From Flaccisagitta enflata (taxonomy: Eukaryota): DNA of 64,000 nt. Every line of letters starts with the position of its first letter. Position 1 is the stretch's first letter. The notes beneath the pieces are model-generated. The model worked only from the letters and a program-made list of their open reading frames with translations, did no database searches and was not told the origin of the DNA. Below are positions 4,750 through 16,056 of the stretch, in pieces. Where the stretch lies: contig OZ231126.1 in assembly GCA_965153355.1 (NCBI GenBank), positions 28,396,001 to 28,460,000 on the forward strand. Reading direction: 5' to 3'. The position numbers were made by a program, and so were the translations under genes.

Positions 4750-16056
<11,307 letters not shown>

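What the first reader, a model, noticed from the sequence alone, without database searches (positions are those of the whole stretch)
15481..15495. Single in-frame TGA (ATG-TGA-ATG) separates an otherwise intact PARP6/8 from its catalytic domain
Seen: ten exons splice in phase over 1093 codons; the only lesion is TGA at codon 905, in the last exon, immediately followed by an ATG opening a clean 188-aa ART domain (HGS, GIY). Known: homologues read roughly FM-x-T-(P/S)HQF here, not Cys, and a last-exon stop escapes EJC-dependent NMD. Inference: (a) CpG decay of CGA ACG to TGA ATG, giving a null allele or young pseudogene (simplest); (b) UGA readthrough; (c) stop/re-initiation yielding a 904-aa non-catalytic protein plus a free ART domain; (d) base-call error.
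Basis: partly seen in the sequence, partly recalled or inferred. Interest (0 to 1): 0.72.

Follow-up and report, generated by a model that had tools for sequence, protein, structure and literature searches.

The report
Nonsense allele in a PARP6-like gene
The stop codon is real in this assembly but is only one variant of the gene: other samples of the same marine animal read arginine there, so this is an ordinary loss-of-function variant and not a special way of reading the code.

Summary
The TGA at 15487-15489, flanked by ATG on both sides, is there. It lies in the last exon of a spliced PARP6/8-like gene on the + strand, just before an open 188-codon PARP catalytic domain. It is not fixed. 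In a second sample of the same organism (X2) one contig has C at 15487 (depth 199.9) and the other, by depth arithmetic, keeps T (151.8). A marine metagenome (X3) shows only C. Four of four near-identical protein variants (97-98%) from unnamed metagenome assemblies read Met-Arg-Thr-PHQF where the window reads Met-stop-Met-PHQF. No SECIS was found, and the ATG after the stop is missing from the other variants, so a stop/restart design is unlikely. A homology-anchored GT-AG model has no other internal stop, but it gives 9 exons and 1014 codons, not 10 and 1093. No RNA evidence covers the stop. Verdict: a segregating nonsense allele carried by the reference haplotype. Ordinary; low interest.

The parts
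5054..5765 (+). Modelled exon 1, from the first ATG of the open frame. It encodes an N-terminal region resembling the N-terminus of urchin and hemichordate PARP6-like proteins, and contains an in-frame 153-nt tandem duplication (5227-5530).
   Evidence: Weak tblastn similarity; donor TTG|GTAAGT; tandem repeat; translation. Not confirmed by RNA.
6456..6712 (+). Modelled exon 2
   Evidence: tblastn to P0046 residues 117-194; in-phase GT-AG borders
7312..7458 (+). Modelled exon 3, a conserved N-terminal block
   Evidence: tblastn E 2e-6 to 4e-6 to P0046, P0062 and P0108; borders
7606..7744 (+). Modelled exon 4
   Evidence: Similarity to the QLRKILEQFLSTHWKELSN block of homologues, judged by eye; borders
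8022..8158 (+). Modelled exon 5, UBA-like segment
   Evidence: Pfam UBA_7 E 0.012 and UBA E 0.016, both below the curated cut-offs. Hemichordate homologues P0046 and P0062 carry PF22562/PF00627.
8655..9273 (+). Modelled exon 6: a Ser/Thr/Pro-rich linker and the start of the Cys-rich domain. The acceptor position is uncertain.
   Evidence: tblastn 9177-9275; several equally scored acceptors
9556..9661 (+). Modelled exon 7, the Cys-rich domain (C-x2-C ... C-x4-C)
   Evidence: tblastn E 9e-7 to P0198; translation CVICDRPHLF...KPTVCLRPTCV
14867..15084 (+). Modelled exon 8
   Evidence: tblastn E 4e-15 to P0198; borders. In the conserved core 14919-15077, 7 of the 10 listed X2 differences are synonymous.
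15347..16056 (+). Last exon: helical region plus the PARP catalytic domain, ending at the natural stop TAA 16054-16056
   Evidence: tblastn E about 1e-47; Pfam PF00644; acceptor AAAAG|G
15487..15489 (+). In-frame TGA. T at 15487 is polymorphic with C (CGA, Arg).
   Evidence: in X2, C has depth 199.9 of 351.8; in X3, C has 4.72 of 4.72. Arg in 4 of 4 variants.
15490..15492 (+). ATG (Met) directly after the stop. Other variants encode Thr here, which ACG would give.
   Evidence: Thr in 4 of 4 metagenome variants. Thr in 15 of 15 more distant homologues.

Best explanation
The window carries a loss-of-function haplotype of a working, rather divergent PARP6/8-like mono-ADP-ribosyltransferase gene of a marine animal. 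The common form of the two codons is CGA ACG (Arg-Thr). The reference haplotype has C-to-T changes at both CpG sites (15487 and 15491), giving TGA ATG. Shown: the stop is polymorphic, and intact Arg-Thr copies exist in other samples. Inferred: translation of this haplotype ends at the TGA. Because the stop lies in the last exon, the mRNA probably escapes exon-junction-dependent decay. The product would then be a protein of about 825 residues (my model) with the N-terminal region, the UBA-like segment and the Cys-rich domain, but no catalytic domain. The ATG behind the stop is a by-product of the second mutation, not a designed restart codon.
For:: at 15487, X2 (same organism label, another sample) has a contig with C at depth 199.9. 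A second contig (record 6, depth 151.8) makes up the rest of the total of 351.8, so it is inferred to carry T. The next contig starts at 15488, as expected for a single-base bubble. X3 (marine metagenome) has C at 4.72 of 4.72. P0122, P0242, P0243 and P0244 (unnamed ENA assemblies, 5 contigs, 97-98% identical over 190 residues) all read M-R-T-PHQF and run open to the same C-terminus; 15 of 15 more distant homologues have a sense codon and then Thr at these positions. T>C at 15487 turns TGA into CGA, and both differences are C/T at CpG (sequence); of the 17 listed differences in the last two exons, 10 are synonymous, 6 change an amino acid and 1 is the stop/Arg change, which points to purifying selection; no other internal stop in an in-phase model; no SECIS or other Rfam match near the gene.
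Against: X2's sequencing platform is not on record, so a systematic miscall at a modified CpG cannot be fully excluded. Twenty-two further differences were not shown, so the synonymous/non-synonymous count is partial. The state of 15491 in X2 and X3 was not visible. No RNA covers the stop: X14 gave 0 reads from about 6% of the run, and the X7 contig covers only 15817-16044. So expression, editing and decay were not tested. The last exon is not CpG-depleted (o/e 1.28), so methylation-driven decay is not shown; only the CpG context is. The whole genome is not held, so a second copy of the gene cannot be ruled out directly.
Confidence: 0.8

Rival explanations
1. Assembly or base-call error: the individual really has CGA ACG, and the two T's are miscalls, for example systematic miscalls at modified CpG in long reads.
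For: Both differences are C-to-T at CpG and lie four bases apart. All 4 metagenome variants and X3 have the C-type reading. The platforms of X1 and X2 are not on record.
Against: In X2 the depth at 15487 that is not C (151.8 of 351.8) belongs to a separate 120-nt contig, which also differs from the window at 5 positions. So it is another haplotype, not an echo of the assembly.
Confidence: 0.07
2. Fixed pseudogene copy: the genome holds two copies, a TGA-bearing decaying duplicate (this window) and an intact CGA copy elsewhere. The 'alleles' in X2 would then be paralogues.
For: The two contigs in X2 have similar depth. The gene departs from 10 homologues at about 25 otherwise nearly invariant positions and in the GVM..ATGAEVVDLL block. 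A more conservative group of relatives (P0195, P0198, P0199, P0201, P0204; 56-61% identity, FMHTPHQF) exists in metagenomes. The genome is not held.
Against: None of the 4 members of P0122's 90%-identity cluster (5 contigs) has the stop version, nor does X3's single contig; a fixed copy of equal abundance should have appeared. Downstream of the stop X2 collapses into one 543-nt contig with only 2 differences from the window, so two long-diverged copies are unlikely. Most listed differences are synonymous.
Confidence: 0.06
3. Programmed recoding or rescue: UGA readthrough, selenocysteine, A-to-I editing of UGA to UGG, or termination-reinitiation at the adjacent AUG. This would give either a full-length protein or a scaffold plus a free catalytic domain.
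For: The 188 downstream codons are open and conserved. An ATG directly follows the stop. A last-exon stop should spare the mRNA from decay (established knowledge).
Against: The stop and the ATG are absent from 4 of 4 other variants, and the stop from X3, so neither is a conserved design. No SECIS was found at Rfam gathering score in the window or at E<=10 in 15000-18500. Homologues have His, Ser or Arg at this position, never Cys. The ATG has T at -3 and C at +4, a poor initiation context, and the base after UGA is A (for the sequence; the rules for context are recalled). Reinitiation after an ORF of more than 800 codons is not expected in eukaryotes (established knowledge).
Confidence: 0.03

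Closest known systems
Vertebrate PARP6 / PARP8 (mono-ADP-ribosyltransferases, H-Y-I triad, Cys-rich domain)
   Same: The last exon read through is 40-49% identical to the listed PARP6 and PARP6-like homologues, most of them vertebrate. PF00644 is matched. The FHGS and GIYLS motifs and a C-x2-C...C-x4-C Cys-rich block sit just N-terminal of the helical and catalytic part. PMC4698753 (passages read) states the H-Y-I triad, says the Cys-rich domain is conserved in all PARP6 orthologues, and reports that catalytically dead PARP6 acts as a dominant negative in neurons.
   Different: The N-terminus is long and repeat-bearing, with a UBA-like piece. About 25 positions that are nearly invariant in 10 homologues differ here, there is a 6-residue insert (CYDSLH), and the GVM..ATGAEVVDLL block is replaced. 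Val stands where PARP6 has the Ile of NIWV. Wild type has Arg where others have His or Ser. This haplotype is truncated before the catalytic domain.
Invertebrate deuterostome PARP6-like proteins (urchin P0006/P0010, hemichordate P0046/P0062)
   Same: They have the same long architecture, with an N-terminal extension. The hemichordates also carry a UBA domain (PF22562/PF00627) before the Cys-rich and catalytic parts.
   Different: Identity is only 41-42% in the alignment. The UBA match here is below Pfam's cut-off.
Unnamed metagenome relatives P0195, P0198, P0199, P0201, P0204
   Same: These are the nearest non-identical relatives, at 56-61% identity over the part they cover. They share CDRxHLF, FENWHS and LYNASGTR with the window.
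   Different: They keep the family consensus FMHTPHQF, SNRSHIVKLP and the ...AAEVVDLL block that the window gene has lost. Their source organisms are unknown.
Nonsense polymorphism by C-to-T transition at a CGA codon
   Same: This is the same kind of event: CGA to TGA at a CpG, segregating alongside the intact allele.
   Different: Nothing unusual, apart from a second CpG transition in the next codon (ACG to ATG) on the same haplotype.

Membership tests
PARP6/PARP8 subfamily of ADP-ribosyltransferases | PARP catalytic domain (Pfam PF00644) at the C-terminus | tested here: met
   E 1.5e-10, 41.4 bits against a cut-off of 26.7. Only profile positions 34-102 of 199 are matched.
PARP6/PARP8 subfamily of ADP-ribosyltransferases | Best and reciprocal-type similarity to proteins named PARP6/PARP8 | tested here: met
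   nearly all named proteins among the 120 best listed are PARP6 or PARP6-like, at E down to 3e-74 and 40-49% identity. No true reciprocal search was run.
PARP6/PARP8 subfamily of ADP-ribosyltransferases | H-Y-I catalytic triad (PMC4698753, passage read) | tested here: inconclusive
   His (FHGS) and Tyr (GIYLS) are invariant. The position I take from memory to be the third residue (Ile of NIWV) is Val here, and also Val in 3 of 10 homologues (P0004, P0006, P0010). Assigning that column is recalled, not tested.
PARP6/PARP8 subfamily of ADP-ribosyltransferases | Cys-rich domain N-terminal of the catalytic domain, conserved in PARP6 orthologues (PMC4698753) | tested here: met
   the model reads C-VI-C-DRPHLFLPDTPLLKPTV-C-LRPT-C. 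E 9e-7 to P0198. This rests on an unverified splice between 9273 and 9556.
PARP6/PARP8 subfamily of ADP-ribosyltransferases | Uninterrupted reading frame through the catalytic domain | tested here: not met
   This haplotype has TGA at 15487-15489. The feature is met by the other variants of the same gene.
Selenoprotein gene (UGA = Sec) | SECIS element in the 3' UTR and Cys/Sec at the homologous position | tested here: not met
   no SECIS match, even at E<=10 in 15000-18500. His, Ser or Arg at this position, never Cys.
Programmed stop-codon readthrough or termination-reinitiation | Stop (and restart codon) conserved among variants and relatives | tested here: not met
   the stop is absent in X3, in one of two X2 contigs and in 4 of 4 variants. 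The ATG is absent in 4 of 4 variants.

The most novel reading that the evidence does not exclude
The truncating haplotype may be common rather than rare. It appears in the reference, and by inference in one of two contigs of a second sample, on a different local background (5 differences in 120 nt). It could be maintained because a catalytic-domain-less scaffold has its own dominant-negative-like regulatory activity, as reported for catalytically dead PARP6 in neurons (PMC4698753). It might be partly rescued by low-level UGA readthrough or by restart at the adjacent AUG. That would be a natural on/off polymorphism of an ADP-ribosyltransferase.
Probability: 0.04. Interest if true: 0.55.

Novelty: already known. 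Interest (0 to 1): 0.13.

Why it matters
The practical point is for annotation. A pipeline would call this locus a pseudogene, or split it into a non-catalytic protein and an orphan ART domain. The species in fact has an intact PARP6/8-like gene, and the reference simply carries a nonsense allele. It is a reminder that reference haplotypes of highly polymorphic marine animals carry loss-of-function variants, and that an in-frame TGA followed by ATG is not evidence of recoding. If individuals homozygous for the allele exist, they would be natural knock-outs of the catalytic domain of a poorly understood mono-ART.

Tried and rejected
- Whole-genome search for a second copy: no genome is held for this window.
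- Earlier notes of this scan: none for this genome.
- JGI metagenome contigs gave nothing. An exact pattern around the stop, with N at 15487 and 15491, had 0 matches. A protein-guided scan with P0122 matched 21 pattern stretches, none confirmed by tblastn. Both scans of that collection are spent.
- RNA evidence: 0 reads of X14 (polyA RNA-seq, about 6% of the run read) were laid on 14150-16500, so this is no test. X7 (metatranscriptome) gave one 228-nt contig, 15817-16044, identical to the window. It lies downstream of the stop and is not proof of transcription.
- Naming the organism from a neighbouring gene: the KIF28-like kinesin exon gave at best 76% identity to a mollusc, a cnidarian and a brachiopod alike. 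The lineage is not pinned beyond 'animal-like, marine, no close relative among named proteins'.
- Alternative nuclear code: rejected. The gene ends at TAA TAG, and the TGA position is Arg in other variants.
- An intron hiding the TGA: a GT at 15486-15487 could act as a donor, but homology runs straight across the site in frame. Rejected.
- Methylation-driven CpG decay as the cause: not supported by composition. CpG o/e is 0.73 for the window, 1.02 for the CDS and 1.28 for the last exon. Only the CpG context of both changes is shown.
- Pfam on the N-terminal and middle exons: no family above cut-off.
- PDB by sequence: only PARP16, at E 2e-4 over residues 15-77. No structure was predicted.
- Supplementary files of papers were not consulted.

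Full report
**Observation**

The sequence at 15481-15504 reads TTC ATG TGA ATG CCG CAT CAA TTC. In this frame the translation is ...KIPKEERLSFM*MPHQFSLL.... It then runs open for 188 codons to TAA at 16054-16056, with TAG directly behind it. The 188-residue tail matches Pfam PARP (PF00644) at E 1.5e-10, 41.4 bits against a cut-off of 26.7. It contains FHGS and GIYLS.

**What the gene is**

- Read through with X at the stop, the last exon finds 1248 longer proteins at E <= 0.001. Nearly all named proteins among the 120 listed are PARP6 or PARP6-like, at 40-49% identity.
- In an alignment with ten of them, the stop column holds His in 8 and Ser in 2. The next column is Thr in 10 of 10, and the one after is Pro 7, Ser 2, Ala 1.
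- tblastn of these proteins on the window finds collinear + strand pieces at 7312-7458, 9177-9275, 9558-9653, 14886-15080 and 15364-16056. Weaker pieces at about 5100-5700, 6506-6703 and 8066-8158 appear.
- I enumerated GT-AG pairs that keep the frame between these anchors. This gives one consistent model of nine exons: 5054-5765, 6456-6712, 7312-7458, 7606-7744, 8022-8158, 8655-9273, 9556-9661, 14867-15084 and 15347-16056.
- The model has 1014 codons from the ATG at 5054. Its only internal stop is the TGA, at codon 826.
I did not reproduce these numbers. The acceptor of the sixth exon is ambiguous, and a further small exon is possible. The qualitative claim, an otherwise intact gene, stands. 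No RNA read verifies any border.
- The model encodes, in order:
  - an N-terminal region like that of urchin and hemichordate PARP6-like proteins;
  - an in-frame 153-nt tandem duplication;
  - a UBA-like piece, with Pfam E 0.012 and 0.016, below the cut-offs;
  - a Ser/Thr/Pro-rich linker;
  - a C-x2-C...C-x4-C Cys-rich block;
  - the helical and catalytic part.
- PMC4698753 (passages read) describes the H-Y-I triad and a Cys-rich domain conserved in all PARP6 orthologues.
- The gene is divergent. At about 25 positions where the ten homologues nearly all agree, it differs. It carries a six-residue insert. It has also lost the ...ATGAEVVDLL block.
- A more conservative set of unnamed metagenome proteins is its nearest non-identical kin: P0195, P0198, P0199, P0201 and P0204, at 56-61% identity, all with FMHTPHQF.

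**Is the stop fixed?**

It is not.

- One run search found 15 runs. Among them were a possible source (X1), a second sample with the same organism label (X2), marine metagenomes and metatranscriptomes.
- The single lay call put X14, X2, X3 and X7 on 14150-16500.
- At 15487, X2 shows C at depth 199.9 of 351.8, in one contig.
- The remaining 151.8 equals the depth of a separate 120-nt contig (15398-15517), so that contig is inferred to keep T. It differs from the window at 5 positions. The next X2 contig begins at 15488. This is the picture of a single-base bubble.
- X3 shows C at 4.72 of 4.72, in a 510-nt contig with 11 differences from the window.
- Independently, the 'near-length' protein search found P0122 at 98% identity. 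Its 90% cluster has four members on five contigs.
- All four read M-R-T-PHQF where the window reads M-stop-M-PHQF. All four run open to the same C-terminal ...RQ[D/N]GEI.
- T>C at 15487 turns TGA into CGA. Thr in the next codon differs from ATG by one C/T change at a CpG if the codon is ACG.
- So the common form is CGA ACG, and the window haplotype carries two C-to-T changes at CpG.

**Constraint**

- Seventeen of the differences listed fall in my last two exons. Of these, 10 are synonymous, 6 change an amino acid and 1 is the stop/Arg change. Synonymous changes predominate, which suggests purifying selection.
- The count is partial, because 22 further differences over the 2351-nt stretch were not shown.
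- Downstream of the stop, X2 collapses into one 543-nt contig with 2 differences from the window. The X7 metatranscriptome contig (15817-16044) is identical to the window.
- The four metagenome variants differ from each other and from the window at six further residues, with no frame break.

**Rivals**

- *Recoding.* No SECIS or any other Rfam family reaches gathering score in the window. None appears at E <= 10 in 15000-18500. Neither the stop nor the following ATG is conserved among variants. The ATG has a poor initiation context (sequence; the context rule is recalled). RNA editing could not be tested, because no RNA read covers the site.
- *Error.* The T-bearing contig in X2 argues against it.
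- *Paralogue.* The genome is not held. Still, none of five metagenome contigs, nor the X3 contig, shows the stop version, and X2's two forms merge immediately downstream.
- *CpG decay through methylation.* This is not shown. CpG o/e is 0.73 for the window but 1.28 for the last exon.

**Mechanism, as far as inferred**

On this haplotype translation should end at the TGA. The stop lies in the last exon: the intron at 15085-15346 is upstream, and homology is continuous to the natural stop. So the mRNA should escape exon-junction-dependent decay (established knowledge). The product would be a scaffold without the catalytic domain. Catalytically dead PARP6 acts as a dominant negative in rat neurons (PMC4698753, abstract and passages). 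Whether anything similar happens here is speculation.

**Verdict**

This is a real but ordinary feature: a segregating nonsense allele of a divergent PARP6/8-like gene, caught in the reference haplotype. It is not recoding and not a fixed pseudogene. Confidence is 0.8.

- The organism could not be placed beyond 'marine, animal-like'. The neighbouring KIF28-like kinesin exon is at most 76% identical to a mollusc, a cnidarian and a brachiopod alike.
- JGI metagenome contigs hold nothing related.

Noticed in passing
window 23882-24346 and 28406-28795, minus strand: Exons of a kinesin-3 gene of the KIF28 type. Pfam Kinesin matches at E 2e-10. The exon at 28406-28645 is 66-76% identical to the 120 listed hits, about half of them named KIF28/KIF28P, from many animal phyla. 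Long (GA)n and (CA)n arrays sit in its introns.
   Followed up: partly
window 45048-46073, plus strand: Two adjacent ORFs in one frame (196 and 145 aa) look like a 7TM receptor; the second half weakly matches Srw/Srsx-type GPCR models at E 2e-4 to 1e-3, below cut-off. They are separated by a single in-frame TAA at 45636-45638. This may be a second interrupted gene or an unrecognised short intron.
   Followed up: partly
window 61982-62281 and 62846-63481, minus strand: Reverse-transcriptase ORF fragments of a non-LTR-type retroelement (Pfam RVT_1, E 2.4e-12).
   Followed up: no
window 14150-14465, 14624-14781, 15098-15255, 16283-16500: Intron and 3'-flank stretches with summed contig depth of 1e5 to 1e6 in X2, against about 200-350 over the exons. 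These are very high-copy interspersed repeats directly flanking the last two exons.
   Followed up: no
window 10756-11546, 16477-16947, 17555-18190, 48355-48955, 63425-63891 (both strands): A recurring element whose translations repeat motifs such as FWAAAPKG and PVFYRTSSPSGPLP. It is followed by (GACG/ACGG)n-type 4-, 20- and 24-nt arrays. Probably a SINE- or MITE-like family.
   Followed up: no
window 17789-17982: Two arrays of a 21-nt unit in opposite orientation form a long hairpin. It gives sub-threshold matches to many unrelated miRNA models on both strands. This is a repeat artefact, not a credible miRNA.
   Followed up: partly
window 5227-5530: In-frame 153-nt tandem duplication (2.0 copies, 95% matches) inside the first coding exon of the PARP6-like gene. 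It adds 51 Thr/Ala/Ile-rich residues.
   Followed up: partly
window 34390-35900, minus strand: Long open frames made of a repeated unit of about 20 residues (...[20 protein letters not shown]...), with no credible family match.
   Followed up: no
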